The notes under the pieces were generated by a model. It was given only the letters and a program-made list of their open reading frames with translations. It made no database searches and was not told the origin of the DNA. Shown piece by piece: positions 1-36,254 of a stretch of 64,000 nt of DNA. Position numbers and translations under genes: made by a program. The DNA is from Trypanosoma brucei (lineage: Eukaryota). How positions within the stretch are numbered: position 1 is the stretch's first letter; each line of letters begins with the position of its first letter. The stretch spans positions 1,504,001 to 1,568,000 of the forward strand of contig CM000208.1 in assembly GCA_000002445.1 (NCBI GenBank). Direction: 5' to 3'.

Positions 1-3000
1 AACACTGCCAACTTCAGGTTGTACGCGGTACGAAGTTCCACCTCTCCCGTGGCGGCCTCGATAGCATCCACCCACAGTTCATCCATGTCTAAGAGGTTTT
101 CTGCGGTTTCAGTAAAGCGAAAATTAATGAGTTTATAACGGCATGAGTAAATATGATTAACGATGCTACTCAAATCCTGAAACATGATCCTTCGTGCCGC
201 TCCACGGGTACGAGGAGCTGGCCGGTGCGTCACATACCTTGCTACTCTCGGGGAGAGCGTAGGAATGGTGGGACTGGCATTGAATGTGGGTGGCACTTTC
301 GCTGCGGGTGACATGCCACCAGATTCGGGCGGTGCGGCTGCAATGACATTCCGCCACCGCTGCCAATATTTACGGAGGCAGTAAAAACTAGTGGTGAAGG
401 AAAGCACCTTCACCTTAAGGTGGGCACGCTCTTCTATACGAAGGGTACGCACAAGCTTCACCCGCCCGCGCTGCATAACCCGATCGTAAGTGGCCCAAAT
501 CCACCTGTTCCACCACATCCTCCGCACATTCGTTATGTGGGCATTGAGCATAACAGATGCCATCCTAGAAAGACTATTAAAGTTTTTCCTCTTGATGTTG
601 CGCAACATATGCTCGCGTCGGAAGTACTTGCAATGAAGCCTCCATGCACGGAATGCATTTTCAGCCGCATTAAACGCATTGATCGTAGAATACCGGGTTA
701 TCAACATCCCCACGCGATCCGAAATGCCGCAATACAAGGAATTATACAAATCCCGCTGCGCCGTACGGACAGATACTGCGTTTTCTCTGCACTGCATCAA
801 TGTTAACAACAAACTACTGAAGTTGTTTTCCCGAGACTTTGCATGTGCATCAAGTGTTTTTCTAGCATCAAGTTTTACGATGGACGTGCCGCAATATGGC
901 CTACAGAACAAAGAAGAACGGTTTGCTTTGATGTCATTGGCATCAAAACAAATCCTGGACACTTTGAGGATCGCAAACTGCTGAAGAACTGAAAGCGGAG
1001 CGAAGTTCACAAAGTGAGCGAGGGGATACTTTTTACACTCGCGGTGCATCTCCAAGTGAACAACCCTACCATTACTAAGCAACGACCCAACTTGCTGACG
1101 CTTCCAATCAACCAAACTGGGTGGGCCCAAGGCTGTGTCAGCAGACGGATGAGGGACCCTCGTGATCACTTTATCGGTCATAGTCGAAAACACCGAAAGA
1201 AGTCCATCATTGCGGGCGATCCACAGCTGGGACTTCATCTGGTCATTGAACAACAGCACAACGGGCTGCGAGTGTCTCTCTATTATGCGCCGCTGGAAAA
1301 CTATACTAAATGTAATGTCATCGGTCCTCTGAAAGGGATCTCTACGAGGGCTTTGGCCCGGGGAAGAACTCCCACCTTTGCCCTTCCGCAACTTGGGTGC
1401 GCACTGCATGTTCATCACGACACCCTCAACGGAAACGTAAAACCGCAAATTATTGAACACACAATACAGGGCACGATTGTTTGTCAACTCATCGAAGGTG
1501 TTGGCAAGTGCTCGGCGTCGAACCTCCTCCGGTGTTGGGTGTTCCAACAACGAGTAGTGGAGCTCAGGGGGATCTGGAAGGAGTCGCATTGTAACCGTTA
1601 TGACTGGCGGGAGATCTACAACAATGCCTGTCACTGTTCCACCATCTATGAGATCCTTGGTGAACTTCGCTTTCCGAGCATAAAGGTCATTAATTTGTCG
1701 ATGATCTGCCGCACCGCTGGTGCGCCCGCGCTCCTCCCTTCTACTGGGGGAACGGCAAGTGTTTACGTAACTCTGTGCTGAAACTTGCTCCACGTAACGT
1801 GCCCCAACTGAGTACGTAGGTAGGTACGATCGGCGCCCCGCAGAAGGCGTTCGGTAGAAGTCAGACACATCGTGCTCAGTTGACTCCGTAAGCACTGTTG
1901 CAACCTTTCCTGTGGCGGTCCTATGTGTACGGGATGCTTTTCTTTTCTTGGTTTTTGCGGACCGAGTTCGTGCGGTAGTTCCGCCATTTGGAGATGCAAC
2001 ACCACCGCCAGGAACGTCTCGACGATCCCTTGTACTAGACGTAAAGGGGTCCCAAGGTGCTTTGCTCCTCTTTACCTTGCCAACTGCTTTTGCGACTTTC
2101 TTCCCTGTCGTTTGAGATGTCCATTGAGTTGCCGCAGTCCGAGGAGTGCTACAGAGTGAACCTCTCAAACCATCAAATACGGACGCCCCAAATCGTGCAG
2201 TCGAAGGTGGCGATACCTTCCTCTGCTTCTTTATTGTGCTTACAGGTGTCCCCCTCCTGCTGGTGGATTTGTGTGGTTGGCACGCATCGGAACCCTTGGA
2301 TGTCGCAACACCATTTTTTCGAGTGCTGCAACTCGTTGTGGTGAAGCAAAGAGATGAAAGCTGCTGTTTTTGTGCCGGTGTTTTTGTTACCCTCGACACG
2401 CCTCTCGCCGATACCTGTGAAATAACACCGATGCCCTGTGACTGCTCCCGCACGGCAAGTCTCGGCGTTGAAGCTGACGTTCGGGTAGAAAGCCGTCCTG
2501 CTCTCCCTCCGGTGTTCAAGCCACTAGATCTGTTGGTTTTCGTGCTCAGTCTACCAGCAACAGACCGTGGGGTATTAACGCGCTGACGCGGACTCAGTGG
2601 TGTGCAAAATGAGTCATTGCCTTGCGGCGTCAGAGAACGATTCGTGCGTTCGTTTGAATTGCTTCGGTTTCCAAGAGATAGATTTGGTGTAAACCTTGAG
2701 CTGTCCGCGAAGCCATCCAACGCAGAAGTAGTTGGCGAATACCGCACAGGGTGTGGGTACGGATCCGATACGTCGTTGGCTAAGCAAGACTCCAACTCCT
2801 CATCCAGATCCCACAGATGTACTGTTCCATGTACATCACCAGAGAAGATGAGATTAACGCGTTTGCTTTGCACAGGCTCTGGCGCCAGTGGCGGCATAAG
2901 AATCTCCAACTCACGTTCCACGTCGCGCATCTCGCGCTCTGAAAGCCGTAACATGAAACGGTGCTCTTCACGTCTCTCCCATCGCGTCATGTCCTGAAAC

Positions 3001-4229
3001 GCGCGCCTGCTTTTAATAAGCTTTGACGCTGTTGCTTCCTTCGGATCGCGCGTCATGGCAACCACGTCACGAGGCTTTGTATAATTCCGCGTCGTCACTA
3101 CTGTGCTAATCCACTTGAGGGTGCGCAGGCCCCCAACACCACCCTTTAGTTTAAAGAGTGGTCTAACCTTCACCATCGTACAGGTAGAAAGGATGTTGCC
3201 TGGCGAACCTCCAGATGGTGAATTCACCGAAAAGGTAACAGCATCAGCCCTAAAAGAAGTGGTCCATGAGTTATAATCCTTCATCCCCGACGATCTTGCT
3301 CGACAAATAACCCTCATTTCCTCGATACAGCCGTATATTTTTTTCAAGTCCCATACCGCAATGCAAGAATCCTCAGAGGCAGTGCACACGAGAGAAAGAT
3401 GCTCACGCCCCTCTCCACCTAGTTGGGACGTGGCCGCCGTAAGCTCATGAACGGCGGCGCTCAGTCGGCTCTCCATGGCGACGTCAGTAACTTTATCATC
3501 CTCGTGGCAGGGACTACGTGCAATGGCAACGATGGCGCCCTTATGGTACTTGGGAAGCTCAAAGACGATATCCGCAATTTCCCCCTTGGCCATCATCGCA
3601 GAACGATCGCTCTCGCACACTCGCTGCGCGCTAGCAGGAAATAGCCGTATAGAGCCGTCACCAAAGCCAATCCACATATAATCCGTATTGATGAGTAATG
3701 ACTCCCGCACATGCAGAAGTTGTTTGGGAGAGTCAATAGGGATCACTTCCAACTGCCTGTTGATAAGACCCTTGAACGGTGCGTGCATGAGGGACGATAT
3801 CAAAACACCCCGCTTCGGATCGGTAATAACCATCACCACAGCACCTGTGAGGGCATCAATCACGATAACCCTGCCTTCATTTGTGCTCTCAACGGCCCAT
3901 ATTGTAGTGGTTGACCACTGCAAATCTAACGTCTTACAGAATTGGGGTGACGGTACGCAGTCTATATTACCTTGTCCCTCAACTGTGATGGCCCTTGAGT
4001 TCGCATTAAGCTGCCTTAGGGCCCTTTTAATGACACCTAAACGCGGTAATGTGCGCACGCAAACCATAAGCCGTGCCTTTAATAGGCTTGAATTGAGCGG
4101 TGAGTTGGGCTCATGCGAAAGAACGATTTGATCTTTCTTTTTGAGAATATTCTCCCACAATTCTTCAAATGCTTCATTCCACCGCTCGGGGTTTTTGACA
4201 GCGGTGGCGGCAGTGGATGAAGCCACCAT
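1..4229 (-). CDS. WD40-repeat protein with long C-terminal extension; 3' end (C-terminus) lies beyond window start; at least ~1409 aa
   Basis: Not in the ORF track because there is no in-frame stop inside the window. Manual minus-strand translation from the ATG at 4229 (upstream in-frame TAA at ~4311-4313) runs stop-free to position 1. N-terminus: MVASSTAATAVKNPERWNEAFEELWENILKK. WD-like repeats: YMWIGFGDGSIRLF, SEDSCIAVWDL, FSGDVHGTVHLWDL. A Ser/Thr/Arg-rich linker follows, then a C-terminal region (…LLFNDQMKSQLWIARNDGL…MFQDLSSIVNHIYSCRYKLINFRFTETAENLLDMDELW…). The spurious plus-strand ORFs 420..806, 1014..1781, 2602..2997 and 3688..4131 are antisense to it. Confidence 0.6.
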   Translation of the reverse strand, partial: MVASSTAATAVKNPERWNEAFEELWENILKKKDQIVLSHEPNSPLNSSLLKARLMVCVRTLPRLGVIKRALRQLNANSRAITVEGQGNIDCVPSPQFCKTLDLQWSTTTIWAVESTNEGRVIVIDALTGAVVMVITDPKRGVLISSLMHAPFKGLINRQLEVIPIDSPKQLLHVRESLLINTDYMWIGFGDGSIRLFPASAQRVCESDRSAMMAKGEIADIVFELPKYHKGAIVAIARSPCHEDDKVTDVAMESRLSAAVHELTAATSQLGGEGREHLSLVCTASEDSCIAVWDLKKIYGCIEEMRVICRARSSGMKDYNSWTTSFRADAVTFSVNSPSGGSPGNILSTCTMVKVRPLFKLKGGVGGLRTLKWISTVVTTRNYTKPRDVVAMTRDPKEATASKLIKSRRAFQDMTRWERREEHRFMLRLSEREMRDVERELEILMPPLAPEPVQSKRVNLIFSGDVHGTVHLWDLDEELESCLANDVSDPYPHPVRYSPTTSALDGFADSSRFTPNLSLGNRSNSNERTNRSLTPQGNDSFCTPLSPRQRVNTPRSVAGRLSTKTNRSSGLNTGGRAGRLSTRTSASTPRLAVREQSQGIGVISQVSARGVSRVTKTPAQKQQLSSLCFTTTSCSTRKNGVATSKGSDACQPHKSTSRRGTPVSTIKKQRKVSPPSTARFGASVFDGLRGSLCSTPRTAATQWTSQTTGKKVAKAVGKVKRSKAPWDPFTSSTRDRRDVPGGGVASPNGGTTARTRSAKTKKRKASRTHRTATGKVATVLTESTEHDVSDFYRTPSAGRRSYLPTYSVGARYVEQVSAQSYVNTCRSPSRREERGRTSGAADHRQINDLYARKAKFTKDLIDGGTVTGIVVDLPPVITVTMRLLPDPPELHYSLLEHPTPEEVRRRALANTFDELTNNRALYCVFNNLRFYVSVEGVVMNMQCAPKLRKGKGGSSSPGQSPRRDPFQRTDDITFSIVFQRRIIERHSQPVVLLFNDQMKSQLWIARNDGLLSVFSTMTDKVITRVPHPSADTALGPPSLVDWKRQQVGSLLSNGRVVHLEMHRECKKYPLAHFVNFAPLSVLQQFAILKVSRICFDANDIKANRSSLFCRPYCGTSIVKLDARKTLDAHAKSRENNFSSLLLTLMQCRENAVSVRTAQRDLYNSLYCGISDRVGMLITRYSTINAFNAAENAFRAWRLHCKYFRREHMLRNIKRKNFNSLSRMASVMLNAHITNVRRMWWNRWIWATYDRVMQRGRVKLVRTLRIEERAHLKVKVLSFTTSFYCLRKYWQRWRNVIAAAPPESGGMSPAAKVPPTFNASPTIPTLSPRVARYVTHRPAPRTRGAARRIMFQDLSSIVNHIYSCRYKLINFRFTETAENLLDMDELWVDAIEAATGEVELRTAYNLKLAV

Positions 4230-4369
4230 CCGTGCAGTCAGCGACCAAAGAAACAATGGGCACCGGCGGCAGAGAAAGGCTCCACAGATAGCAGCTTGCC
4301 TCCTCTCTATTTAGCTGCTCCTGCTGTTGTACTTCGCATATTAAATTACGATTGTAACGCATGTTCAGG

Positions 4370-4530
4370 AACGAACCAAGTTGGTACAGTAGAGAGGAAA
4401 AAAAAAAGAATAAGGTGATAAAAATAGGGACAAAAGTAACTTTCACACAGTGCATCTTGTGGTGGCAAGCACACCACAGGGAAAACAAGAAAAAGGGGGA
4501 ATGGAAGGATGCTGAAAAACACATGAAGAG
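4370..4530 (-). promoter_or_regulatory. Putative polypyrimidine tract upstream of the WD40 gene start (4229)
   Basis: Plus strand purine-rich: gagaggaaaaaaaaaagaataaggtgataaaaatagggacaaaag…gggaaaacaagaaaaagggggaatggaaggatg. That is polyY on the minus strand 150-300 nt upstream of the ATG. Confidence 0.3.
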
Positions 4531-5206
4531 GTAAACCCCAAAACACCAGCCAAACAAGTGAGACACGCGATATTCCGCATGTACTGGTGCTAGCATAAGC
4601 TGCAAAGGCGTATAATTAAAAAATAAAATTTCTCTGAATGGAGTAAAAGGGTGAGCATATGCGTGCGCAGGCCATTATTGCAACTTGCCTCCCTTTGCGA
4701 CGCTTCCCGACACACAGCGACAGTGAGAAGGTTAGACAGGGAAACAAATGCAACAAATAATCAAACAAACAAGAAAGTTAAGTAAAGTAGAGGAGAACCA
4801 AAAGAGTTTCCCAACCCCTTTTGAAGAGACCTTTTTTTCTGCGTAGGCATTCTGCTCATGTGCTGCTGCCGAAGACGTTTTTTCTCTTCCTCCCGTCCAA
4901 TGCTGCACATGCCAAATGTTGACGACCTCTATGTGTTAAAAATAAAACGCCAACATTCTCTATGGTATTGCCATCACCAACAACTTCAATTTGCTCTGTT
5001 CTATGATTACACCAAATTACTGTCAATGTATTTTTCTCCCCCTTTCGTCTGAATGTCATTAAACACAAGCGCCCCTCAGTTAAGGCAACCACGAGAGCCC
5101 AATTGCTCCCTATGGCTCTTACCCAATGCTTTCTTGTCTTTTTCTTGAAAAGTTATACAAGACTGAATGTGAAAAGTTAACAACAATGAACACTCCTAAA
5201 ATAACC

Positions 5207-8200
5207 CTATTCGTATTCCATCGTTGCGATGAAAACTTCGCTGTTGTCAAAACCATCAAGACAGGAGGTATTTGTACGTTGCGTTAAAGTCAAGGTCGGT
5301 GTATCTACTGTTGGGAGGCTCCCCATCACCGAGTGAGTCTCCTGTGAAGACCCAATAAACTCCCCTTCCACAGAAGAGGCAGTCAAGTTGCTGCCTTCCA
5401 TCCCCACTTTGCCGGCACATGATAAATTAGTCCCAACCTCCTTGTGGGGTATGCGCCAGCCGTCTGCCGACAGCATTCGATTACCAACCCAATGAGTCCC
5501 CAAAGAAGATCGCTGGTCCCCGGTTTGTGGCGACACGCCACCCTTCCCTGCGAACCTCGGCGCCGGCATGTGCTCGGGCAGAGAGTTTCCGCATAAATCC
5601 AAGCTCGGGGAAACATCGCGTGGCCGCTTGGTAACGCTGGCAGGAAGTATGTTTGGTGTGCCATCCAGCTTAGCAGCACGGCGTAGGGAAGATACGAAGG
5701 CCATCACCGTGTGATCCGTACTTGAGGCCAGTTTCTCCCGTTGTGATAGGATGCTGACTAATGCAACCGCATCATTCCTCAACAATCGGGAGCAATATGG
5801 TACCAAAGCCAGGAGGACTGTAGGGTCTACAGTTGCTGCAAATTCAATACCACAGCGGACGATGCCGACGCATGCAGAATAGTATTTGTCAGGTAATGGC
5901 CAGTGCATAGAAGATAGCTTTACTCCAACCGCTGAGAGGCTGTCAGCGGATTGCTCACGAGCAGCCAACAGAACTGACCACTCCAACGAGAGGCTGTCAC
6001 CGCTGTGGTCGCGCAACTTACGAAAGAGGCACCTAAAAATATCCGACACCGCCTTTGTTGGTGCATGACCCCACTGTGCAAGAACTCGCGGACCAGCAGA
6101 CTCTGGTAGTCTCTTCAGCATCATCAACCTCGCAACTCCCATACTCACACGCATTTGTGACGATTCCAGGTATGAAACTTTTCTGCGCAGTGGCGCCAAG
6201 GGAATAGGTTGGTCACCCTCAAGTGCTCCAGCTTCTGCCTTCTTTAACTCTTCCCGCGCACTGGTCACCTTCGATCCCAATAACTGCGACAACTGCGCAA
6301 ATCTATCCAACACCTCATTCCTTTCCGCTTCTGAAAGGATATAGTGGGGAAGCACGCAAAGGTCACACAAAATGAGCATGCCATCAACCAATAACCCAGT
6401 TGCATCTGCCCCCACATGCTCGGCATAAGCTGTCCACATAAGTGAAACGCAACGAAACAGCTCTCCAATCAATTGACTAATGACATCTCTTACATCGGAC
6501 GTGACGCCGCTATCATCGGCACCGCCCGGTGTTGTCGGTTCTCTATGTTCGTGTGTCTGCTCTTGCGCCTCACGGAGTTGCCACAAAACACAACGGACCA
6601 AACTCGTCAAAACAAGTTGGATAAGTTCTGGAGATGCCCGCGCTTCCACATGATGAAGGAAAGATGACTTGAAGAGGGTCAACAAATCCCCCATCGGTAC
6701 CAATGACGAAACAATACTTACCCTAGTCCACAGATGCAGTTGTTCCCTCTCCCATGCCTCGCCACTGGCGCGTGAAGGCGTACTACCGTTTGCTGTCAGC
6801 TGCTTGACAACTTGTCGCCGCAACTCCTGAAGTTGACCCTTCGCCTCCACTACCAAGGGATGCTCCTCGGATACCAACGCGTGCCATGCACCTGTTATTG
6901 GAACAAGAGAAAGTTGATCACTGTGCGGAAGTGCAGCAGTAACTTTGCGCATCAGCACCAGGAGTGACTTAATTTGAGAAACATCCTGCAGTGATATGAA
7001 AGCTTCCATATCCATAGCGGAAATAACGGCCGCGACGGCACCCACCACTGCCACATCACTTCGATGCCTCTCCAGAACACCGGTCAACACAACACCTACA
7101 TCGCGGCTCATCGACCCGATCACCGCGGTGATTGCCTCTTGCTTGTCTGCACTGATTTTTTTTTCTTGCGCACCCTTACGGTCATCCTTGGGAATTGGTC
7201 CCAAGTCTGTACGACCGCGCAATTTCTCGAGCAGCGCTGACAAAAAACCTAGGGCAACAACTACGTCTGTGGCGGCGTCGGACTGAGCGAGCTTCAATAT
7301 CGGCCCATACTCTCTTAGTAGCGGGGGTATATCTTGCGGAGGTGTGTAGAGGGAATCAACAATATATCTCTCAGGCATCATCTCTCCGTGCTGTGAACGG
7401 AGCATGGCAGCAAATGTGCACAGCAGTTCTGTCATGGCCTGGAGGCCAGCACTCTCGTCACGCTCATCAGTGGGAAGGCGTGTTTCAATAAAATCATGGA
7501 GAAGGGCACCAGCCTCGCGTCGGATTGTTGGGCATTCACTAAAGATGTTGAGCAAAACACTGTCGATCATCTCGTTATTGAGAAGCTGCTTATCTTCTGC
7601 TTCAGCAGAGAATATTCGTAGAATTCGACGGATAACACCGATCGCCAACTGGGAGCAATGTAGGTTGACATCATTACACATCTCAACAAGACGCTTGGAA
7701 AAGTACTGGAGGAAAAGGAACATCCGGCTGCCGCTGTCTGGTATGGAGTCGAGCGTCTCCTGAATCATCGCGAGGGCCTCGGCACGTATCTCCGGACGCT
7801 TATCATACAGCGCCATGCCAAAGTAGCGGAAGTACTTGTTCTCAGCAAATTCCTCGTCAAACTTTAGGATCCAACCCTTCAGGCTCTCAAATACCAACAA
7901 ACGAATTTCAGGTGCCACGTCACGAGCCCGCTGATGAACAGTCTGAGTTAATATTTGGTTGCGCTGCTCCACTACCGCTTGAATGACCCGCTGCTTTGCA
8001 TCAGCATGTTTCTTGTTGCGTTTGTCTGCGCATACCTGACCGTTGAGAGTTTGTATAACGCAACTGAGCGCATCAACAACGTATAGAAGAGTGGCCGTGG
8101 ATGTATGCCGGAAACAGCGGGCTTTGCTTTCGCTCATGGCCACGAGCCATGCCACAACGGTTGGCAGTAGAAATTGGTCGAACATTAGGTTCTCGCTATA

Positions 8201-8701
8201 GGAGAGCTCCACGAGACGCATGAAAAATTGTCCGTAAGCGATTCGCAACTTCTGGCTCTTAGGATCTCTTTGCGAAAACAAGTAAGCAGGGGCATTTTCT
8301 GGCACATGCGCAAACATTTCATCAAGAAGTGTGTTCATATCCGTATTTCCTTCCACTGCGGCGGCGCCCAACTCACCATCCACTACACCCGATACCTTAC
8401 CGACTAAATTCAAAATGGCAGCGCATAACTCCTGCCGATTTCCCTCACAGTAGAGACGAAGGACATCAGAAGCCACACGAGAAGGTGAAACACCACCTGC
8501 GAGGGCCGTGAACAGTGATTCCATCAGGGAAGTACCCTCCTCTGGAACAATAACTGGTGCAGTGGGTTCTTCGGTGCATAACTTCGCAGCCTTCCCCGAC
8601 GCATCAACATTCTTCGGCCGTTCCCTTTCGTTCTTCGGTGTTGGAGACACCTTCGCAGCCTTCGGCTTCTGTGACACTTTAGTCTTCACCTTCCTGGGCA
8701 T
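5207..8701 (-). CDS. SCC3: Cohesin subunit SCC3 / stromal antigen (STAG-domain protein), 1164 aa
   Basis: Stromalin conservative domain motif RARDVAPEIRLLVFESLKGWILKFDEEFAENKYFRYFGMALYDKRPEIRAEALAMIQ. It aligns with human SA1/SA2 [53 protein letters not shown]. Long HEAT-like helical protein with a basic N-terminus. Confidence 0.7.
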   Translation of the reverse strand: MPRKVKTKVSQKPKAAKVSPTPKNERERPKNVDASGKAAKLCTEEPTAPVIVPEEGTSLMESLFTALAGGVSPSRVASDVLRLYCEGNRQELCAAILNLVGKVSGVVDGELGAAAVEGNTDMNTLLDEMFAHVPENAPAYLFSQRDPKSQKLRIAYGQFFMRLVELSYSENLMFDQFLLPTVVAWLVAMSESKARCFRHTSTATLLYVVDALSCVIQTLNGQVCADKRNKKHADAKQRVIQAVVEQRNQILTQTVHQRARDVAPEIRLLVFESLKGWILKFDEEFAENKYFRYFGMALYDKRPEIRAEALAMIQETLDSIPDSGSRMFLFLQYFSKRLVEMCNDVNLHCSQLAIGVIRRILRIFSAEAEDKQLLNNEMIDSVLLNIFSECPTIRREAGALLHDFIETRLPTDERDESAGLQAMTELLCTFAAMLRSQHGEMMPERYIVDSLYTPPQDIPPLLREYGPILKLAQSDAATDVVVALGFLSALLEKLRGRTDLGPIPKDDRKGAQEKKISADKQEAITAVIGSMSRDVGVVLTGVLERHRSDVAVVGAVAAVISAMDMEAFISLQDVSQIKSLLVLMRKVTAALPHSDQLSLVPITGAWHALVSEEHPLVVEAKGQLQELRRQVVKQLTANGSTPSRASGEAWEREQLHLWTRVSIVSSLVPMGDLLTLFKSSFLHHVEARASPELIQLVLTSLVRCVLWQLREAQEQTHEHREPTTPGGADDSGVTSDVRDVISQLIGELFRCVSLMWTAYAEHVGADATGLLVDGMLILCDLCVLPHYILSEAERNEVLDRFAQLSQLLGSKVTSAREELKKAEAGALEGDQPIPLAPLRRKVSYLESSQMRVSMGVARLMMLKRLPESAGPRVLAQWGHAPTKAVSDIFRCLFRKLRDHSGDSLSLEWSVLLAAREQSADSLSAVGVKLSSMHWPLPDKYYSACVGIVRCGIEFAATVDPTVLLALVPYCSRLLRNDAVALVSILSQREKLASSTDHTVMAFVSSLRRAAKLDGTPNILPASVTKRPRDVSPSLDLCGNSLPEHMPAPRFAGKGGVSPQTGDQRSSLGTHWVGNRMLSADGWRIPHKEVGTNLSCAGKVGMEGSNLTASSVEGEFIGSSQETHSVMGSLPTVDTPTLTLTQRTNTSCLDGFDNSEVFIATMEYE

Positions 8702-10541: not shown

Positions 10542-11342
10542 TCACTCCTCAACGTCAGGGGGTTGCTCGTGTAATTCATCATCATCCTCTTCGTTGTCTG
10601 CAACGGCGGGGATGTCTTCTGGGCGCGTCTTAAACCCATCCAGATACTTGCGCGCCTCTTCTTCCGTGAGAATAGTAAAGGGGGTGCCCTTTCCTACAAT
10701 GGCAATGGTGGTGTTTTTAATGTTCAGTTCTACACCACCAGAGGTCGCCGCGCCAAGAGCCCTCAACGCATGCATAACCAACTCGTCCAAATCACACGCG
10801 GGAAACCCTCTAAAGTGCCTCTCCAAGTAGGTACGTGCTGCCTGAGAACGCAACCCCATCGCGGTTGCCTTAAAATCAAACACATCACCTGAGGGCACCG
10901 TTTGGTAAAGGCGTGGCCCCTGGCGATCATAACCGGCAATTAAGAGACCGACACCAAAGGGACGCTTACCCGCAAATTGAATGTGGCGCTGGTGCTTCGC
11001 GCCCACCATGTCAGCAAGCATAACAAGTGGAGCGTCGCTATCGTGCATGTAGCGATAATTCATACATTCTGTACGTAGAAAACGAGAGAGCGCACGGCCG
11101 TCTGCCACGAGGCCACTGATTGCCATGCCAACGTGCTCATCCAATTTGAATGCCTTCTCTTGATAGGATGATAGCCCTGACACGGGATTGCGTTTCAAGG
11201 CCGTGAGTACGACATAATCGGCGCCCTTAACTCCAACCGCAGCGGAGCCATTGTTCACCGCCTCATTTGCGTATTCCACTTGAAACAACCTCCCGGTTGG
11301 GCTCCACGTGGTGGTATCCGTGTCGTACTGGTTTTTAAACAT
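10542..11342 (-). CDS. PSA5: 20S proteasome alpha subunit, alpha-5 type (266 aa)
   Basis: [40 protein letters not shown] matches the alpha-5 N-terminus (human PSMA5 [39 protein letters not shown]). Alpha-type fold throughout. Acidic C-terminal tail. Confidence 0.8.
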
Positions 11343-11669: not shown

Positions 11670-14076
11670 GGCGTGTGTGTACACGTGTGCATCAAATACG
11701 TAATGAAAGAAACGAAGAAAAGAGCGATTAAGTTAACCCCTCAGTTGCGCAGAGTGACAGGTGATATAATGACATCGACTAAAGCAAATGAACACAAACA
11801 CAAACACCGTCAAGTGGACATCCGCAAGAGAAAATGCGTGACCTCCACTTGTGCGAATGTGTATGGGCAAGTGGATACGAAAAGGATAGAGAAAGAGACG
11901 CATGTAAGTAAATATTGGAATATTTTCGCGTATTTCAGCAAGCAATAGCAGCAAAGCAGGCTTCCTTCATTTGTCTTTTCCTCTTCCCCTAGGTCCATCT
12001 CACGACCTTTCTCTCTCTCTCGTTTGAAGTGAGAAAATTTTATTCAATGTAAAAAATGGGAAAGAGAGGGGAGGAAAACAAATAATAATGGAAGACCGTG
12101 GAAGAGCACATTTTTTTTCTTTTGAAAAAAAAAAGAGAACAGAAGTGGTCACCACAACCAAGCACCACAATATGTACAAAAAGAAAAACACACGCTTGTT
12201 AAGTACACTTTATTTTTGTTTGTTCGTTTTTTTTAACCTTTTAAAGTTTCTTCTGGTTTACGTTTCTCCCTTTCCCTCCACTACCTCTCCTCTCCCTGGG
12301 GAAGTAATTCAATCCATCTTATATTATCTCATTTTTCCTTCCCCCTCCCAGTTGTTTTTCCTTTGATTTATTTGCTAACGTTCATTTCTGTCTGCTCCCT
12401 TTACTTCACTCCCTTTTTTTGTTCTGTTTCCCTTTATCATACCGGGAGTTGACTCCTCAACTTATTTATAACCACGAGGTGACAATCCGAGAAAACAACC
12501 CAAACACACACGTTTCTGTTCGCCGCATTTTCTTTCGCGGCACTCAAAAATCACACGTAACCGAAAAATACACACACACGCATCTGAACCAATAAATTAA
12601 CACAGAAAACAAAGACACACACAAAAACATAAATATATACAAATACATCAAATATTTATATAAGTGTATATATTTCCCTCCATTTCCCTTATTCTCCTTC
12701 TCCCTCAAAAAAAAAAACCTTACTCCACCCCACACCCCTGAGCGTATTCGCTTTCTCCCTTTTGTTTGTCTGGTTATTTTTTTTTTGTTACTGTTGTTTG
12801 TTGTTTCGCCATAATTACACCTCTTTCTTCCTAATTTCCACACCCTATTATATTTTTGTTTTTCATCAACTTAATTTATTACGTCGTGTCTCATTTTCTC
12901 GTCAGGGAGAAGGGAGAGAGGGAAAGAGGAAAGAAATGAAAGGAAAAGCAAAGGATGCCACCACACATCCGTAACAAATGGAAGCAGAGTTGCTCAAAAT
13001 AGAAGAAAAAGAACAAAAGCAGCATTGGAAAGATGTGAGGGTGGGGTAAATTTTTTTCGAAAAAATAATAAAGAAGAAAGTGAATAAAATGAAAGGGTTA
13101 AACAAAAAGATGAGCAAAGGGTACATTCCCATCAGATGGAAATAGTTACAGAATAATGATAAACCACCCCAAAAATAAGGAGGGAGGGGGGAAAAAAACG
13201 AAAAGGGAAGGGAAGGGACGGCAGGGAAAAGAGCTGCTGCTACTGCAGCCCTTTTCCCCCCCCTTTTCTTTTTATTATTAGTCTTCAGACATTTTCTCTT
13301 CCCAATTTGTGCGCATGTGAAGGGGCATTTAAATGGATGTAACAATGATGGCACCGGGTGATGGAGAATCGCTGGCGTCATGTTTCGGGTTTTTTGCCTT
13401 TGTGACTACTTTTGTTGTTATTATGATTGCTTTTAGTTGTTGTCCTTGCTGTCGTGTCTGTATTTCCCCCTTTCATTCTTTTTGGTTCACATTTTCCACT
13501 AAATCTCCCACAATTATATTCTTTCCCTTTCATCCATGATAACACGGAAATTTCAGAGAGGGAAAATAAAACAAAAACAAAAAAGAAAGGATACCCTTAT
13601 CCACTCTTTCCTTCCTCTTTTCTTTATTTCATTCCGTTATTATTTCCCATTCATAGAGATATGCAACATCCCTTTTCCTTTCCCCCATCACTTCTCCTTC
13701 AGTACATCTTCTTAACAACTTCCATATCCCTTGAAATCCCACGTGTTCTCAGAAACAGTCCCTTTTTATATTAAAACAACAATCCTTTCATCGTTTTATC
13801 ATCAATTATTGCTTTCGTCACACATCCTTCACATCCCCCTTGCGCATCCCACCCCTCCCCCAAAATCCTTCCTGCTTCGCATTCACTAACCACAATTATT
13901 ATAACCATAATAACCTTCACTGGGGTTCTCCGCCTCAGCGACGGCACCGAAAGGAGCACACACGTGTGTGTGTGTTTTTTTTTTGTTGGTGTTGTTGTTG
14001 CTATTTCTTCCCCTCCACCTACTCACCCTTTTCTCCTCCCATCTCCCTTCCCTGTGTTTCTTTTGTCCTTTTGGGC

Positions 14077-17000
14077 TCAGTATGGCATCATGTTAGGGTT
14101 TCCCATCCCTCCAGCATATCCCTGACCGGGCACGCCACCGTAGCCCGGTTGCGGGTGGATGTTCACATTATGCATCGGAACTCCCATGGGCTGTGCTGGG
14201 CCTGCCTGAATCATCAGTGGGTCATTACCACCCGCATACCCAGGAACACCACCACGACGAGATCCATCTTTTGATGGCTGCATGCCGTCGTTAGCGCCCT
14301 TTTCCAAGCGTGATACCCGCTGAGTGAAGTCGTGGATGGCCTGAATGAGGTACGGCATGGCAATATTGATACGGTTGTTTAGCCAAGCCTTCTCAAGAAC
14401 CACGTCCGGAGACAAGTAGTCATAGCAGGCGTAAAGGCAGGAAACGAATGAATCTGGTCGTTCAACTGCAAAGAAGTCAAGAAGCTCCTCCACAACCTTT
14501 GGATCGGCGCTTTCGACAGCCGTGTCAATGGCCTCCTGGAAGAGCTTATTCTCCTTGGCCACCGCAAGGGCGTGGTCAAAGGCCTTGTGACGGCGGTGGA
14601 GGAAGAGAGCAATCTTGCGGAACTCAAACAACTCCATCTTCTCCAGCCGTGCGCTCAACTCCACAGAGTCGAAGTTGTTGTAGTTCTCTACAGAGTTACG
14701 TAAGGCCACAAAATTTTCTTCCTCCACGTACAGATCGTTCAGAGCATCGTTGATCAACCGGGAGTTGCGCGGTTGTGCGGATTCGAGGTATGGCAGAATC
14801 AGGTGAATCGGGGCAACATTTTTCACCTCACGGAGCACACGGTCGGGGTCAAGCACCTTGAACATGCTCGTCAGAAAGTCGCACAGGTTTTGAGGGCACG
14901 TATTGACGTAGAACGAAATCGCGTTATATACAAAATCGCTAGCACCCAGATGGCTTGCAACGTCCTTGAACACATCATGATCGAAGGCATCAGCAAAATG
15001 ACACATCATCGTCTTCGCCGCAGCCAACCAGTCCTCGTTGCCGACGTGGAGCACACGCAGGGCCAACCAGTGGTGGTATTCCTCGCAAACGGAGATCAAC
15101 TTGTGTGCGTTAATCTTCTTTGAGTACATGTGCACGTGCTCCAAGAGTTTCTCGGGTTTATACTTGGCAAGCTGTAGTCCCATTTCAGTGAAAATGCCCA
15201 TGTGCGCGCCAGAGTTAGTTGAGGCACTCTTGAGAACAGCGAACAGTTCATCATAAAGACCGTATGCCTCGTACCGGTTCACGACATCTTGCAGAGATTC
15301 CACCTGTAGAACGAGGGGAACCGCGCAAATAGCAGCAAGCCTTACATCGTTGGCCTCAATACAGGCATGGTTAACCGCATCCCATGTGCTGCGGGACTGG
15401 GCCTTCTGCGCAGCGTCCACAGCCTCAGCAAGGTTGTTCATGCGCACAAGCGTAAGGGCCAATTTATGGAAGTTCATGCTCATGGAGTAGAGCAGACGCG
15501 CTGAATCATAGTACCCATCTTCAAAGCACTTGTCAGCCACAGGTTGAATCTGTACATTGTGCGTGTTTTGCAGCAACTCTTCCAATTCTGACAGGCGTCC
15601 AGTTCTGGCGTACGTTAGCAACAAAACCGACTCAATCTTATTGTCGTTCGAAGTGGACTCCTGGCGTGCCATGTTGAGATACTTGACGAGGTCCCCGAAT
15701 TGGTTACTGCGCTCCGCTGCAGCAGTGACAGCATCAACGTAGTTGGGATTCTTCGCGCGAATGAGGACCTCAATGGCTTCACGCACCTCACCGGCGGCGA
15801 GGAGGTATTCTCCCAAAACTGTCCATACAGCAGGTAGGTTGCACCTCTGAGCGTACAACCGACCACGAGGAAGGTCCTTCAAATCGCGGAGTAAAACGGT
15901 GGCAGCCTCCATCCTCATTTCAAACTTGTCATAAACGGTCATCGCTTCCTCGTGCAGCTCTGCTGCGGTAGCGATGCCAGCGATTTCCTTCGCATCGTAG
16001 CTGTCAAGAGTGGTTACATACTCCATAACCTTTGCCTTGGATGCGCGGACAGCGGACATAATAAGGAGATTCTCCAAATAGCGGTTTTTCCTAAAGCGGC
16101 CACGGACGACGATCTGATCTAGTATAGAGGTCAGTTCCTCCGTCAGCTCCGCATCCATAAACGCCTTCACAGTGGTGCTCACCTCCTCCGTTACCTCAGA
16201 CTCGGGAAGTGCAGTTTGTTGAACCGCCTCAACGAGGCGGTCTCGGTTGATCGAGCTTTCCGTGAGCACAGACGCCCAAAGTGCAGGGTCCTGTTGTTTT
16301 ACAAGGTAGCGAGCAAGTTGCTTCCACATGCCATTCTTCGATGTGATCTCAACCAGTTCGGTGCTCATCTTAGCCTTGCGATAAACCAAATAGGACAGGT
16401 TGGGGTCGCGATCCTCGCAGTACTTACCCATGACCACTGGATCGTAGTAGTCGTTCTCCTCAATGAACTTCTCGGGTAAGTTACCACTGATGACCAAGAG
16501 TTTTGCAATAGCATTATGAAGGGCGGTATCCGTCTTTTTTTCCGCAAGTCGGGCTTCCAACCAGGGTCCAATGAGGCGAAGCCGACTGCGCTCTTCAGCG
16601 ACATCGACAAGTTCTGCAATCGGGCACATTGTACCCACTGAGTTTAGGATGTTCTTAATGAAGTCCTCTTGCACGTTACAGTCAATAAGCGCACCGACTA
16701 CCGCGGGTGTTTTCAGCGGGTTGCGGCGCTGCACGTACTGCTCAATAAGAGCTTCATTGTTTGTGTCAATCAGATAACGAATCAGTTCATCAACAAAATT
16801 GTGCTGGTCACAGACGTTGATAAGGGGCCAAAGGTTTGTCATTTTCTTGTTCTTCAGGTAGTTCTTCGTGCGCTCAGGGTCATAACACGGGCTCTCACGT
16901 GTCATGCGCTCGAGTTCCTGCACCTGCCCAACTTCAGCCGCTGCCTCAATATAGCGGAAGTGCACCTCTGGATCACGAGTGTACGGTACCACAGCGCCAA

Positions 17001-19188
17001 GGTAATAATACAGAATATCAAACAGTTTCCGCTCGAGGAACACGTTAATTAGTTTGTCCGCACCGAGCGCTTCATTGTACTTTGTTGCAACCTGCACAAT
17101 GATTTTGAAGTTCTGGTGATGGTTAGCAAGAAGGTCCTCTAGGCACTTCATGCTGTCTCCTGGGCTCAGTTTGCCGAAGAACTCGATAACCCAATCAGGG
17201 CTGAGCACTTGGGCATTAGAAAAGCAACGACGAATGTTAGCAAGGTTGTCAATGCCCGGGTCCATCCTCTGGGCCATTACATAGCACTCAATAGCGCGCT
17301 GCGGAAGGGAAGCGCGTTCACAGAGGGGCGCCAGCAACATGGCATCAAAGTGAACACACACACCGCGAGCAAAGATCTTCTCCGCAACCGACGGATGGGA
17401 ATGCTTCAGGTTAATCTCTAGAAGCTTCGTTTGGAGATCCTTTGTATTCTCTCCAGTGTTATCACGAAGGACTTCCAGAACGAACTCGGTTGCTTGCTGG
17501 ATGTGCTGAGCGGTCACGAACATATCCACAACTTCGATGGGGTCAACGACAGGCGCGTCACCCATGTCACGGTGCAATACTTGCGCGAGGCCCACGGCAC
17601 CTTGCGGGTTGACGTGTATTGCGTTGTTCAAGATGACGCGCCAGTTGGGGGTGAACCCAGCGCGTTTGCAGTACTCAACAGCCTTCTGTGTCTCGTTGCG
17701 TTGAAGGAGGACACCAACAACCTTTGCGTGTGCCTCCGCCTTGTGGTAGATTTTGATGGCAAGCTCTGGGTCCGCCGCTGACATAAGATCACCAAGTTCC
17801 TCGGAGGCGGTTAGTTTGTCAGCAGCATACTGTTGCTTCACGTAGTCGACACCACCCTTCGGTATAACGGCACGGGCAAGTTCTGCTGACTCATGCGCGT
17901 TAAGAGTGGTTTCGGCAACTGCCACCTTAAAGTAGGTGGAGATTGCGGGCTGCTGCCCCGGAATCGGCGGCATAAGTTGGAAGCGAGAAAGAATATCGGG
18001 ACCACGCAAGGCGTTGTTTGGTGCACGTAGGCATGTGCGCACCGCCTCCTCTATGTTCCCAGCACGAAGCTGGTTATCCAGCTGAACCCTGTACAGGTCA
18101 TCCACACCTCCCAGGTTAGCAGAGCCGGCAATGCGAAGGGCCAGATCAGCATTTTGCAATTGGTTTTTCACAAAGGGAACGATCGTATTGTCGTTTGGAG
18201 ACACGTGGAACACGGAGCCCGCGTTGTTCACGCACAGGATACCACCAGTCTTCGTGTAGGGTGTCCCGCAGAAAATGGTATTGTTCGGAAGTTGGTGAGT
18301 CTTAATGACCACTCCAGTGAAGAGGTCCATAAGCACCACGCTACCACGGCTTGTCACAACGGTGAGGAGTTTGTGTCGTGGTGAGACGTGTGTCGCAACG
18401 GGAAAGTCACCCTGAGCAAAGGGGACATCGATCATACGGCGCTGAACTGTGAGATCCGTTTTGGATCCTGTAGGAAGCTCCATGATCAAAATTTTCCCAC
18501 CTGTGGAGGGGTTGTTCCAAGCGAGGCACATCAAATTGCATGAGCGTGGGTCTGTCGGGGTGTTGGTGGAAATGAATGTTCCACTGTGACCGTCAAGCAC
18601 ACGGCCACTATTGTTTTCGACGCTGAAGAGTTGTGTTTTCCCCACCATACCCTCGGCAGTTCGCATAACACCACAAAGCATCAACCACTTCTTCTGCTCA
18701 TCTGTCTGGTAACTAAGAACCTGAAACGAGGCGTCAAACTCAGGGGCCCGCGAGAAGACCAACTGCGGTGGAGCATCGGCAGCTGTGTCCAGACTCCAGT
18801 GATACACTGCGGTATTAGAGACGATACCTACAGTGCGAGCATCAATCCAACACCAATAGACCACGTCCTCGTTGAACACAACCACCTTGAGACGATTAGC
18901 CGCGTCCACGTCGAATATCTGCAAGTTGCGGCCGCTGCGGAGTGCAAGAATCTTTGCCATAGGATTCATGATGGCTGACTCCGCATCACGTATACTGTTG
19001 CGCATGCTCTCCCGCTTCCCGAGATCCACGATAACAAGAGAGGTTTGACCATCAGGTTGCACATCGCGGATGCAAACGTACTTGTCGCTCTGCAGCGTCA
19101 GTGTCTTGAAGGAAATGGTTCCCGGTCTCAACCCACCAGAGACGGAGTTGAGTTGAAAGACCTCCGCAGAGGTTAGTGGATTATCCAT
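14077..19188 (-). CDS. CHC: Clathrin heavy chain (1703 aa)
   Basis: N-terminal beta-propeller MDNPLTSAEVFQLNSVSGGLRPGTISFKTLTLQSDKYVCIRD…. Repeated clathrin heavy-chain repeat (CHCR) helical zigzags. Gly/Pro/Met-rich C-terminus. Length and architecture are typical of CHC. Confidence 0.9.
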   Translation of the reverse strand: MDNPLTSAEVFQLNSVSGGLRPGTISFKTLTLQSDKYVCIRDVQPDGQTSLVIVDLGKRESMRNSIRDAESAIMNPMAKILALRSGRNLQIFDVDAANRLKVVVFNEDVVYWCWIDARTVGIVSNTAVYHWSLDTAADAPPQLVFSRAPEFDASFQVLSYQTDEQKKWLMLCGVMRTAEGMVGKTQLFSVENNSGRVLDGHSGTFISTNTPTDPRSCNLMCLAWNNPSTGGKILIMELPTGSKTDLTVQRRMIDVPFAQGDFPVATHVSPRHKLLTVVTSRGSVVLMDLFTGVVIKTHQLPNNTIFCGTPYTKTGGILCVNNAGSVFHVSPNDNTIVPFVKNQLQNADLALRIAGSANLGGVDDLYRVQLDNQLRAGNIEEAVRTCLRAPNNALRGPDILSRFQLMPPIPGQQPAISTYFKVAVAETTLNAHESAELARAVIPKGGVDYVKQQYAADKLTASEELGDLMSAADPELAIKIYHKAEAHAKVVGVLLQRNETQKAVEYCKRAGFTPNWRVILNNAIHVNPQGAVGLAQVLHRDMGDAPVVDPIEVVDMFVTAQHIQQATEFVLEVLRDNTGENTKDLQTKLLEINLKHSHPSVAEKIFARGVCVHFDAMLLAPLCERASLPQRAIECYVMAQRMDPGIDNLANIRRCFSNAQVLSPDWVIEFFGKLSPGDSMKCLEDLLANHHQNFKIIVQVATKYNEALGADKLINVFLERKLFDILYYYLGAVVPYTRDPEVHFRYIEAAAEVGQVQELERMTRESPCYDPERTKNYLKNKKMTNLWPLINVCDQHNFVDELIRYLIDTNNEALIEQYVQRRNPLKTPAVVGALIDCNVQEDFIKNILNSVGTMCPIAELVDVAEERSRLRLIGPWLEARLAEKKTDTALHNAIAKLLVISGNLPEKFIEENDYYDPVVMGKYCEDRDPNLSYLVYRKAKMSTELVEITSKNGMWKQLARYLVKQQDPALWASVLTESSINRDRLVEAVQQTALPESEVTEEVSTTVKAFMDAELTEELTSILDQIVVRGRFRKNRYLENLLIMSAVRASKAKVMEYVTTLDSYDAKEIAGIATAAELHEEAMTVYDKFEMRMEAATVLLRDLKDLPRGRLYAQRCNLPAVWTVLGEYLLAAGEVREAIEVLIRAKNPNYVDAVTAAAERSNQFGDLVKYLNMARQESTSNDNKIESVLLLTYARTGRLSELEELLQNTHNVQIQPVADKCFEDGYYDSARLLYSMSMNFHKLALTLVRMNNLAEAVDAAQKAQSRSTWDAVNHACIEANDVRLAAICAVPLVLQVESLQDVVNRYEAYGLYDELFAVLKSASTNSGAHMGIFTEMGLQLAKYKPEKLLEHVHMYSKKINAHKLISVCEEYHHWLALRVLHVGNEDWLAAAKTMMCHFADAFDHDVFKDVASHLGASDFVYNAISFYVNTCPQNLCDFLTSMFKVLDPDRVLREVKNVAPIHLILPYLESAQPRNSRLINDALNDLYVEEENFVALRNSVENYNNFDSVELSARLEKMELFEFRKIALFLHRRHKAFDHALAVAKENKLFQEAIDTAVESADPKVVEELLDFFAVERPDSFVSCLYACYDYLSPDVVLEKAWLNNRINIAMPYLIQAIHDFTQRVSRLEKGANDGMQPSKDGSRRGGVPGYAGGNDPLMIQAGPAQPMGVPMHNVNIHPQPGYGGVPGQGYAGGMGNPNMMPY

Positions 19189-19959: not shown

Positions 19960-20100
19960 TGGCGCGGCAAACCATACATGAAGTAGTGGTAGTAGAATGG
20001 GGGGAAAAAGGGAGGCGAGGAAAGCGGAAAGAGAAAAAAGTGAAGAAAAGTGAGACAGTTGAAAAAAAAAAAAGCACAAAATGACACCACAGTAAACCCC
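19960..20100 (-). promoter_or_regulatory. Putative polypyrimidine tract / spliced-leader acceptor region for the clathrin heavy chain mRNA (minus-strand sense)
   Basis: The plus strand is strongly purine-rich here (gggggaaaaagggaggcgaggaaagcggaaagagaaaaaagtgaagaaaagtgagacagttgaaaaaaaaaaaagc). That means a long C/T tract on the coding strand ~800 nt upstream of the CHC ATG. Kinetoplastid trans-splicing uses a polyY tract followed by AG. The exact acceptor AG is not determinable by eye. Confidence 0.3.
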
Positions 20101-36230: not shown

Positions 36231-36254
36231 ATATATATATATATATATATATAT
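36231..36254. repeat. (AT)n microsatellite
   Basis: atatatatatatatatatatatat in the spacer between the Atp23-like gene and the next hypothetical. Confidence 0.9.

What the first reader, a model, noticed from the sequence alone, without database searches (positions are those of the whole stretch)
1..4313. Large WD40-repeat gene absent from the supplied ORF track (runs off the window edge)
Manual translation of the minus strand from the ATG at 4229 gives an uninterrupted reading frame of more than 1400 codons, continuing past position 1. It has clear WD-repeat signatures, a low-complexity Ser/Thr/Arg-rich linker and a structured C-terminal region. The track shows only short antisense plus-strand ORFs here (420..806, 1014..1781, 2146..2586, 2602..2997, 3688..4131). 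Anyone relying on the track would mis-annotate 4 kb as non-coding or as a cluster of small plus-strand genes. A stop-free 4.2 kb stretch on the unit strand is essentially impossible by chance.
Basis: seen in the sequence. Interest (0 to 1): 0.6.

Follow-up and report, generated by a model that had tools for sequence, protein, structure and literature searches.

The report
Known trypanosome gene cut by window edge
The long open frame is real: it is the first 1409 of 1535 codons of Trypanosoma brucei gene Tb927.10.6000, an already annotated but uncharacterised kinetoplastid-only protein, and the ORF list missed it only because the gene runs off the window edge.

Summary
The minus-strand frame from ATG 4229 to base 3 has 1409 codons and no stop. 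The other five frames have 29-87 stops, and chance gives about 1e-29.5.

The translation is identical over all 1409 residues to XP_822843.1 / UniProt Q38B05. That is Tb927.10.6000, "hypothetical protein, conserved", 1535 aa, T. brucei brucei TREU927 chromosome 10. It lies between TbCEP57 (5990) and SCC3 (6010). The missing 126 codons and the stop lie beyond base 1. The ORF tool does not list ORFs that run off an end, so the gap in the track is an artefact.

Full-length orthologues exist across trypanosomatids (Trypanosoma, Leishmania, Leptomonas, Phytomonas). Unnamed metagenome homologues are more distant. An exhaustive search found no relatives outside the family.

Architecture:
- A divergent WD40-like beta-propeller encoded in two segments (aa ~105-485 and ~850-1120).
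- Between them, a 365-aa basic Ser/Thr-rich disordered stretch that looks like a trypanosomatid-specific insertion.
- An Arg-rich helical region with three ~47-aa repeats ending [YF]FxxW[RK].
- An acidic helical C-terminus.

Function is unknown. I infer a scaffold role. A centrin-binding (Sfi1-like) role is only a motif-level lead. The gene is already known and of low interest.

The parts
3..4229 (-). Partial CDS of Tb927.10.6000, codons 1-1409 of 1535. The last 126 codons and the TAA stop lie beyond base 1.
   Evidence: No stop in 1409 codons. Identical over 1409 aa to P0015 = XP_822843.1 / Q38B05. Gene ID from the gene order 5980/5990/6000/6010/6020/6030 in Marques 2022 and from UniProt neighbours Q38B04 and Q38B06 in Benz 2019. 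The stop is seen in the T. b. equiperdum locus L001.
4391..4430 (-). Polypyrimidine tract upstream of the start. The first downstream AG is at 4332-4333, a probable trans-splice acceptor that would give a 5'UTR of roughly 100 nt.
   Evidence: Read directly. The role is inferred from established knowledge of trypanosome trans-splicing signals and was not tested.
4311..4313 (-). In-frame TAA that closes the frame upstream of ATG 4229.
3948..4229 (-). N-terminal leader, aa 1-94. Moderately conserved, mostly helical or low-confidence in the model.
2775..3917 (-). First beta-propeller segment, aa ~105-485. About 4-5 blades with helical insertions at aa 295-313 and 403-444. This is the best conserved part of the family.
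3348..3395 (-). Canonical WD motif SLVCTASEDSCIAVWD, aa 279-294.
   Evidence: Matches WD repeats of Mis16/RbAp46-type and U5-40K chains in profile searches of PDB sequences, E 0.015-0.35. Weak Pfam WD40 hit.
2802..2855 (-). Second canonical WD motif NLIFSGDVHGTVHLWDLD, aa 459-476.
   Evidence: Invariant D465, G468, H471 and W473. Weak profile match to the WDR34 repeat and to WDR55.
1683..2774 (-). Basic Ser/Thr-rich low-complexity linker, aa 486-849. Not conserved in sequence. Looks like a lineage-specific insertion.
   Evidence: For aa 491-845: S+T 27.6%, R+K 17.7%, net charge +45, 14 [ST]P sites. The linker is 262-375 aa in the 17 closer members of alignment A5 (the named ones are trypanosomatids) and 34-77 aa by alignment in the distant homologues. 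By phmmer the gap between the two matched segments there is 24-68 aa in P0033-P0036 and 78-176 aa in weaker matches.
870..1682 (-). Second beta-propeller segment, aa ~850-1120, about 3 blades. Includes the blade motif LWIARNDGLLSVFSTMTDKVITRVPHP (aa 1002-1028).
330..854 (-). Arg-rich helical region, aa 1126-1300. Holds three ~47-aa repeats ending [YF]FxxW[RK], at W1196, W1243 and W1292.
   Evidence: Long helices in the AF2 model, at low confidence. W1196 and W1243 are nearly invariant across 26 homologues. hhalign self-match at a shift of 47 residues, E 6.9e-5. Repeat logo.
180..329 (-). Pro/Ala/Arg-rich second linker, aa 1301-1350.
   Evidence: pLDDT below 50.
3..179 (-). Start of the acidic helical C-terminal domain. 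Aa 1351-1409 lie in the window; the domain continues to aa 1535 outside it.
   Evidence: Net charge -18 over aa 1351-1535. Conserved block LAVFxxxLxPLLxGL ... LCxDY. No Pfam family matches it.

Best explanation
Positions 3-4229 (minus strand) are the 5' 92% of the protein-coding gene Tb927.10.6000 of Trypanosoma brucei brucei TREU927, chromosome 10. It is annotated 'hypothetical protein, conserved', 1535 aa.

The gene sits in a minus-strand polycistronic unit. It comes after clathrin heavy chain, proteasome alpha-1 and SCC3, and before TbCEP57. It is absent from the ORF list only because that tool omits ORFs that reach the window edge.

The product belongs to a small family found only in kinetoplastids. 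Its most likely role is a multi-domain scaffold. The proposed parts, with how firmly each is established, are:

1. A divergent WD40-like beta-propeller serves as a protein-docking platform. It is encoded in two segments. These are nearly contiguous in distant relatives, so they probably close into one ring of 7-8 blades. The single ring is inferred.

2. Trypanosomatids have a 260-375-aa basic, Ser/Thr-rich disordered loop between the segments, where distant relatives have only a short one. It probably acts as a phospho-regulated, polyanion-binding tether. This role is inferred.

3. An Arg-rich helical stalk carries three conserved [YF]FxxW[RK] repeats that may bind small partner proteins. This is speculative.

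4. An acidic helical C-terminal domain follows.

Gene identity, coding status, conservation and the fold class of both beta segments are shown. The single-ring topology and all functional statements are inferred.
For: Coding status and identity:
- Open frame of 1409 codons, against 29-87 stops in the other frames and a maximum of 253 codons in shuffles.
- 100% identity over 1409 aa to XP_822843.1 / Q38B05.
- Gene ID and neighbours from Marques 2022 and Benz 2019 supplements. These are consistent with Pfam on the neighbours: SCC3, proteasome alpha, clathrin heavy chain, and a weak Cep57_CLD match downstream.
- The same start is used by orthologues.
- Against T. b. equiperdum there are 10 synonymous and 7 non-synonymous codon changes, with 11 of 18 base changes at third positions.

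Family:
- 13 clusters were found by word-indexed search.
- The exhaustive phmmer search of 1.84 billion representatives gave 28 hits. All but one (P0046, E 7.5e-5) have E <= 7e-18, and I read all as family members or fragments.
- Named members are from Phytomonas, Leishmania, Leptomonas, Novymonas and Porcisia.
- Downstream neighbours (LRR protein, then B-box protein) are conserved in an unnamed homologue contig.

Fold:
- A blade motif in the C segment aligns to N blades.
- 9 of 26 members give weak hits to Pfam beta-propeller models, best E 4.6e-7.

Insertion: the linker is 262-375 aa in the closer (trypanosomatid) members and 24-77 aa in most distant homologues.

Repeats.
Against: - There is no direct functional evidence. 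No paper in the searchable library mentions the gene, its UniProt or GenBank accessions, or the Leishmania identifiers I tried.
- No per-gene localisation data could be reached in the TrypTag supplements held.
- The gene was not found in the stored, truncated proteome and phosphoproteome tables.
- The RNAi cell-cycle screen shows no flagged phenotype: <2C ratio 0.84, >4C ratio 0.49.
- The models are of moderate (pLDDT 63) and low (pLDDT 51) confidence.
- The Foldseek TM-scores are only about 0.2.
- Pfam matches are single-repeat hits far below curated cut-offs.
- The two beta segments were never folded together, so one ring versus two partial domains is unresolved.
Confidence: 0.85

Rival explanations
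1. The protein is specifically a centrin-binding (Sfi1-like) cytoskeletal scaffold. The three [YF]FxxW[RK] repeats in the helical stalk each bind a centrin or calmodulin-like EF-hand protein. This would place the protein at a centrin-containing structure such as the basal body, the hook complex/centrin arm or the flagellum.
For: The repeat logo was built from 73 repeat copies taken from 25 homologues:
- W is invariant, by construction.
- Position -3 is F/Y/L/W in 71 of 73.
- Position +1 is R/K in 37 of 73.
- Positions -8 and -7 are often L or A.
- Position -16 is L, A or M.

These are the same key positions as the Sfi1 consensus AX7LLX3F/LX2WK/R (Kilmartin 2003, PMC2173958). One homologue, P0010, reads AARFSELMLLRKAFEMWR, a perfect fit. 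The internal repeat is supported by the hhalign self-match. Distant members carry up to five such motifs.
Against: - The repeat period is 47-49 aa, against 23-35 aa in yeast Sfi1.
- No Pfam Sfi1 or IQ match in any member, or in the isolated helical regions, even at E <= 10.
- The repeat profile A6 finds no Sfi1 chain among the PDB sequences searched at E <= 10.
- The motif is short, and Arg/Trp-rich helices can arise for other reasons.
- There are no localisation or interaction data.
Confidence: 0.15
2. The highly basic Ser/Thr/Arg-rich linker makes the protein mainly a nucleic-acid-binding or nuclear/nucleolar factor, like the many WD40 ribosome-biogenesis proteins that top the fold searches.
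Against: - The linker is short in distant homologues, so it is not the ancestral functional core.
- No RNA-binding domain was found.
- The family has no relatives outside kinetoplastids, unlike conserved ribosome-biogenesis factors.
Confidence: 0.08
3. The region is non-coding, or a cluster of small plus-strand genes (the ORFs the track shows), and the long minus frame is a chance or decayed ORF.
For: Only the mechanical ORF list, which shows 101-255-aa plus-strand ORFs here.
Against: - The chance probability of the minus frame is about 1e-29.5.
- Full-length orthologues of 1400-2200 aa occur across the family.
- Every long ORF with a Pfam assignment in the window is on the minus strand.
- The plus ORFs are antisense to a conserved CDS.
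Confidence: 0.01

Closest known systems
Tb927.10.6000 (XP_822843.1, UniProt Q38B05), 'hypothetical protein, conserved', T. brucei brucei TREU927
   Same: Identical over all 1409 residues encoded in the window. Same neighbours: SCC3 upstream and CEP57 downstream.
   Different: Nothing differs. The window simply lacks the last 126 codons.
Canonical WD40-repeat beta-propeller proteins (e.g. Utp18, Rsa4/NLE1, WDR12, WDR5, G-beta)
   Different: - Most blades lack the GH-WD signature.
- The T. brucei protein is below the Pfam WD40 threshold.
- It has large helical insertions and a 365-aa disordered insertion between blades.
- No sequence relatives exist outside kinetoplastids.
Sfi1-family centrin-binding repeat proteins (Sfi1p, hSfi1, POC5, ciliate Sfr proteins)
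   Same: Helical region with tandem repeats whose key residues (F/L at -3, W at 0, K/R at +1, hydrophobics at -8/-7) follow AX7LLX3F/LX2WK/R.
   Different: - Only three repeats.
- Period of 47-49 aa instead of 23-35.
- No profile-level similarity.
- Preceded by a propeller, which I do not recall Sfi1 having (from memory, not checked here).
Large axonemal WD40 plus coiled-coil proteins (CFAP43/44/57-type chains in doublet-microtubule structures, e.g. 8glv_Do, 9y6s_7L)
   Same: Overall layout of an N-terminal propeller followed by long helices, and similar size. They appear among weak Foldseek hits.
   Different: No sequence similarity. Neither the T. brucei protein nor the family profile matches any PDB chain, including the Leishmania tarentolae doublet structure, although L. 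tarentolae has an orthologue.

Membership tests
Annotated gene Tb927.10.6000 / XP_822843.1 | Sequence identity to the deposited protein | tested here: met
   0 differences in 1409 aa against P0015. There are 1-8 differences against the T. equiperdum, T. b. equiperdum and T. b. gambiense proteins.
Annotated gene Tb927.10.6000 / XP_822843.1 | Genomic position between SCC3 (Tb927.10.6010) and CEP57 (Tb927.10.5990) | tested here: met
   Pfam on the neighbours. Gene order and UniProt numbering in published supplements.
WD40-repeat proteins (Pfam PF00400 / clan Beta_propeller) | Beta-propeller fold made of four-stranded blades | tested here: met
WD40-repeat proteins (Pfam PF00400 / clan Beta_propeller) | Score above Pfam's gathering threshold for WD40 or a WD40-type propeller model | tested here: not met
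   The T. brucei protein scores 11.4 bits on WD40 against a cut-off of 27. The best score in any family member is 30 bits against 154 (Beta-prop_WDR3_1st), and these are single-repeat matches only.
WD40-repeat proteins (Pfam PF00400 / clan Beta_propeller) | Repeated GH...WD sequence signature in most blades | tested here: not met
   Only two blades end in WD (aa 293-294 and 473-474). The others carry a degenerate hWhxxxDGxhxh motif.
WD40-repeat proteins (Pfam PF00400 / clan Beta_propeller) | Closed ring of 7 (or 6-8) blades | not testable with these tools
Strand counts are about 20 in the N segment and 11 in the C segment, about 31 in total, or about 7.75 blades. The near-contiguity of the segments in distant homologues suggests one ring.
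Sfi1-type centrin-binding repeat proteins | Tandem repeats fitting AX7LLX3F/LX2WK/R | tested here: inconclusive
   Positions -3, 0 and +1 fit well. Positions -8, -7 and -16 fit only partly. The consensus is taken from PMC2173958.
Sfi1-type centrin-binding repeat proteins | Repeat spacing of about 23-35 residues | tested here: not met
   W-to-W spacing is 47 and 49 aa.
Sfi1-type centrin-binding repeat proteins | Profile-level similarity to Sfi1 (Pfam Sfi1, solved Sfi1 fragments) | tested here: not met
   No Sfi1 hit in Pfam at E <= 10 on the isolated helical regions or in whole proteins. The repeat profile A6 finds no Sfi1 chain among PDB sequences.
Sfi1-type centrin-binding repeat proteins | Binding of centrin | not testable with these tools
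   Needs pull-down or co-expression experiments, or complex prediction.

The most novel reading that the evidence does not exclude
Tb927.10.6000 defines a kinetoplastid-specific scaffold. In this reading, a single WD40-like propeller has been split by a lineage-specific, roughly 350-aa basic, phospho-regulated loop. A helical stalk with long-period Sfi1-like repeats recruits centrins, linking it to basal-body, hook-complex or flagellar biogenesis. That would make it a new class of centrin-binding protein.
Probability: 0.12. Interest if true: 0.45.

Novelty: already known. Interest (0 to 1): 0.15.

Why it matters
For the scan, the finding mainly matters as a caution. Mechanical ORF lists drop genes that touch a window edge, so 4.2 kb of real coding sequence looked empty or antisense.

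Biologically, the gene is one of the many conserved kinetoplastid-only proteins of unknown function. Two architectural points give concrete, testable handles for anyone who wants to characterise it:
- the propeller blades on both sides of a disordered insertion that looks trypanosomatid-specific;
- the conserved W-repeats in the helical region.

Neither point is surprising enough to change current views.

Tried and rejected
- **Pfam on the T. brucei protein.** Nothing significant.
- **Profile and single-sequence searches of PDB sequences.** Only sub-threshold single WD-repeat matches. The protein is in no solved structure.
- **Linker-deleted construct (aa 1-490 plus 848-1535) for structure prediction.** This would have tested the single-ring idea.
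- **Foldseek against afdb50.** The library was not available.
- **Literature.** No main-text mention of Tb927.10.6000, Q38B05, XP_822843, old-style Tb10.70 IDs near it, or the Leishmania identifiers tried.
- **Published supplements.** The TrypTag supplements held contain no per-gene entry. The Dang 2017 BioID tables list only the neighbour CEP57. The Benz 2019 and Crozier 2018 tables are truncated as stored and do not show the gene.
- **Sfi1 or IQ membership.** Rejected at profile level.
- **Axonemal CFAP43/44-like identity.** Rejected, because there is no sequence match to any doublet-microtubule chain.
- **Exact-sequence look-up of P0015 in the contig collection.** It found nothing. The T. 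b. equiperdum copy (L001) was used instead.


Full report
**Observation**

Translating the reverse complement of 1..4229 in the frame of the ATG at 4227-4229 gives 1409 codons without a stop. Bases 1-2 begin codon 1410.

The other five frames of the same stretch contain 29-87 stops. With the local base composition, a stop is expected at 4.7% of codons. The probability of 1409 stop-free codons is therefore about 10^-29.5. In 500 shuffles the longest open run was 253 codons.

Upstream, the frame is closed by a TAA at 4311-4313, and ATG 4229 is the first ATG after it. That explains the finding's end coordinate.

The long minus ORF is missing from the list because the ORF tool states that ORFs running off either end are not listed. 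The 'absence' is an artefact of the track, not of public annotation.

**Identity**

The 1409 residues are identical to P0015 = EAN78015.1 / XP_822843.1 / UniProt Q38B05. This is 'hypothetical protein, conserved', 1535 aa, from T. brucei brucei TREU927. The T. equiperdum, T. b. equiperdum and T. b. gambiense copies differ at 1-8 positions.

The window's neighbours on the same strand are:
- SCC3 (5207-8701)
- a proteasome alpha subunit (10542-11342)
- clathrin heavy chain (14077-19188)
- two CCHC zinc-knuckle proteins
- a proteasome beta subunit
- a pseudouridine synthase
- a queuosine-salvage protein
- a peptidase M76
- GPI2
- a 3246-aa BEACH protein
- COG3
- an aldehyde dehydrogenase

In the T. 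b. equiperdum chromosome the gene is followed by a 443-aa protein with a weak Cep57_CLD match, then an LRR protein, a B-box protein and an ELMO protein.

Published tables give the gene order as Tb927.10.5980 LRRP, 5990 CEP57, 6000 hypothetical, 6010 SCC3, 6020 and 6030 PSA1. UniProt Q38B04 is SCC3 and Q38B06 is CEP57. The gene is therefore Tb927.10.6000.

The T. b. equiperdum copy shows that the ORF continues for 126 codons beyond the window and ends ...EFLRLCRFD-TAA.

A 40-nt polypyrimidine tract (4391-4430), followed by an AG at 4332-4333, lies upstream of the start. From general knowledge of trypanosome trans-splicing, this is what is expected for a splice-acceptor region. It was not tested.

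**Family and conservation**

Word-indexed searches found 13 clusters: T. brucei, T. congolense, T. vivax, T. conorhini, T. cruzi, T. rangeli and seven unnamed Logan assemblies.

An exhaustive phmmer scan of 1.84 billion representatives with aa 95-1294 returned only 28 proteins. All but one have E <= 7e-18, and their sizes and matched regions fit family members or fragments. There were no general WD40 hits and no other relatives.

Named members include Phytomonas, Leishmania infantum, L. donovani, L. braziliensis, L. tarentolae, Leptomonas, Novymonas and Porcisia. All are 'hypothetical'.

A distant unnamed homologue keeps the downstream LRR and B-box neighbours. A still more distant one (P0034) lies on a metagenome contig where all six genes share one strand, as in kinetoplastids. 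A second such contig (P0044) is mixed-strand.

Against T. b. equiperdum there are 10 synonymous and 7 non-synonymous codon changes. This is compatible with purifying selection.

**Architecture**

Conservation is high in aa ~105-485 and ~850-1160. It is moderate in aa 1126-1300 and 1400-1450, and low in aa 486-849.

*Family-wide Pfam support.* Nine of 26 family members give weak hits to Pfam propeller models, best E 4.6e-7. These are single-repeat matches far below curated thresholds.

*The linker.* The stretch between the two beta segments is Ser/Thr/Arg-rich, with net charge +45 and 14 [ST]P sites.
- In the 17 closer members of alignment A5, of which the named ones are trypanosomatids, it is 262-375 aa with the same composition.
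- In the distant homologues it is 34-77 aa by alignment.
- By phmmer, the gap between the two matched segments there is 24-68 aa for P0033-P0036, and larger for weaker matches.

I conclude, by inference, that the two segments form one propeller of about 7-8 blades. The strand counts are about 20 plus 11. I also infer that the linker is a lineage-specific insertion into a loop.

*Helical region.* After the propeller comes an Arg-rich helical region, aa 1126-1300. It holds three repeats of about 47 aa, supported by an hhalign self-match at a shift of 47 residues with E 6.9e-5. Each repeat ends in [YF]FxxW[RK] followed by basic residues. W1196 and W1243 are nearly invariant across 26 homologues. 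Distant members show up to five such motifs.

*C-terminus.* A Pro/Ala/Arg-rich linker (aa 1301-1350) and an acidic helical domain (aa 1351-1535, net charge -18) complete the protein. Neither matches any Pfam family.

**Function**

There is no direct evidence.

- No paper in the searchable library mentions the gene or its accessions.
- It is in no solved structure. That includes trypanosomatid axoneme structures, even though L. tarentolae has an orthologue.
- In the genome-scale RNAi cell-cycle screen its values are unremarkable (<2C ratio 0.84, >4C ratio 0.49), and it carries no cell-cycle mRNA, protein or phospho flags.

My best reading is a scaffold. The propeller would serve as a docking platform. 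The basic Ser/Thr-rich loop would be a regulated tether. The helical repeats would be a binding site for small partners.

The repeats share key positions with the Sfi1 centrin-binding consensus AX7LLX3F/LX2WK/R (PMC2173958). Against this, their period is 47-49 aa rather than 23-35. Pfam Sfi1 is not matched. A profile of the repeats does not find any Sfi1 chain in the PDB sequences. I therefore keep centrin binding as a lead, with probability about 0.15, and not as a membership claim.

**Verdict**

The finding is correct as an observation and essentially correct as an interpretation. However, it describes a gene that is already annotated (Tb927.10.6000) and was missing only from the mechanical ORF list. 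Novelty: already known. Interest is low. The split-propeller layout and the conserved W-repeats are minor new descriptive points that would need structure prediction and wet-lab work to become meaningful.

Noticed in passing
window 23458-24234 and 25322-25744 (minus); tandem repeats at 23636-23901 and 25446-25715: There are two adjacent CCHC zinc-knuckle genes, with 7 and 5 knuckles. Their internal 96-nt and 84-nt tandem repeats are the knuckle units. They lie between clathrin heavy chain (Tb927.10.6050) and proteasome beta (Tb927.10.6080), so by position they are probably UMSBP2 and UMSBP1.
   Followed up: partly
window 41797-51537 (minus): A 3246-aa ORF encodes a BEACH-domain protein with Laminin_G_3, PH_BEACH, Beach and a C-terminal WD40 propeller. 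It is the largest gene in the window.
   Followed up: partly
window 4174-4605 (minus): A 143-aa TTG-initiated ORF, in another frame, overlaps the 5' flank and the first codons of Tb927.10.6000. It covers the polypyrimidine tract and is most likely spurious.
   Followed up: no
window 1-64000: Every long ORF with a family assignment is on the minus strand, so the window is one polycistronic unit. No Rfam family reaches its gathering score anywhere in the window.
   Followed up: yes
window 12001-14000, 20001-22000, 36001-38000: Intergenic stretches with low GC (0.38, 0.43 and 0.38). The 20-22 kb stretch, downstream of the zinc-knuckle genes and upstream of clathrin heavy chain, also has a strong AT skew (0.30). 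The gap at 19189-23457 holds no long ORF.
   Followed up: no
window 32308-34455, 37825-39174, 54814-59340, 60626-62158 (minus): Four further long minus-strand ORFs (715, 449, 1508 and 510 aa) have no Pfam match at E <= 0.001. They are presumably more kinetoplastid-specific hypothetical proteins.
   Followed up: no
L004 (JGI metagenome 3300075642) and L005 (ENA ERZ21831265): Distant homologues of the family (P0034 and P0044) lie on environmental contigs. L004 has six tightly packed genes, all on one strand, as in free-living kinetoplastids. L005 has genes on both strands. The organisms were not identified. In these proteins the inter-segment linker is short (47-52 aa by alignment).
   Followed up: partly
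L001 16549-17880 (T. b. equiperdum; just beyond window base 1 in T. brucei): The next gene downstream of Tb927.10.6000 is TbCEP57 (Tb927.10.5990), a basal-body protein. In trypanosomes adjacency carries no functional implication, but it fixed the gene numbering.
   Followed up: yes
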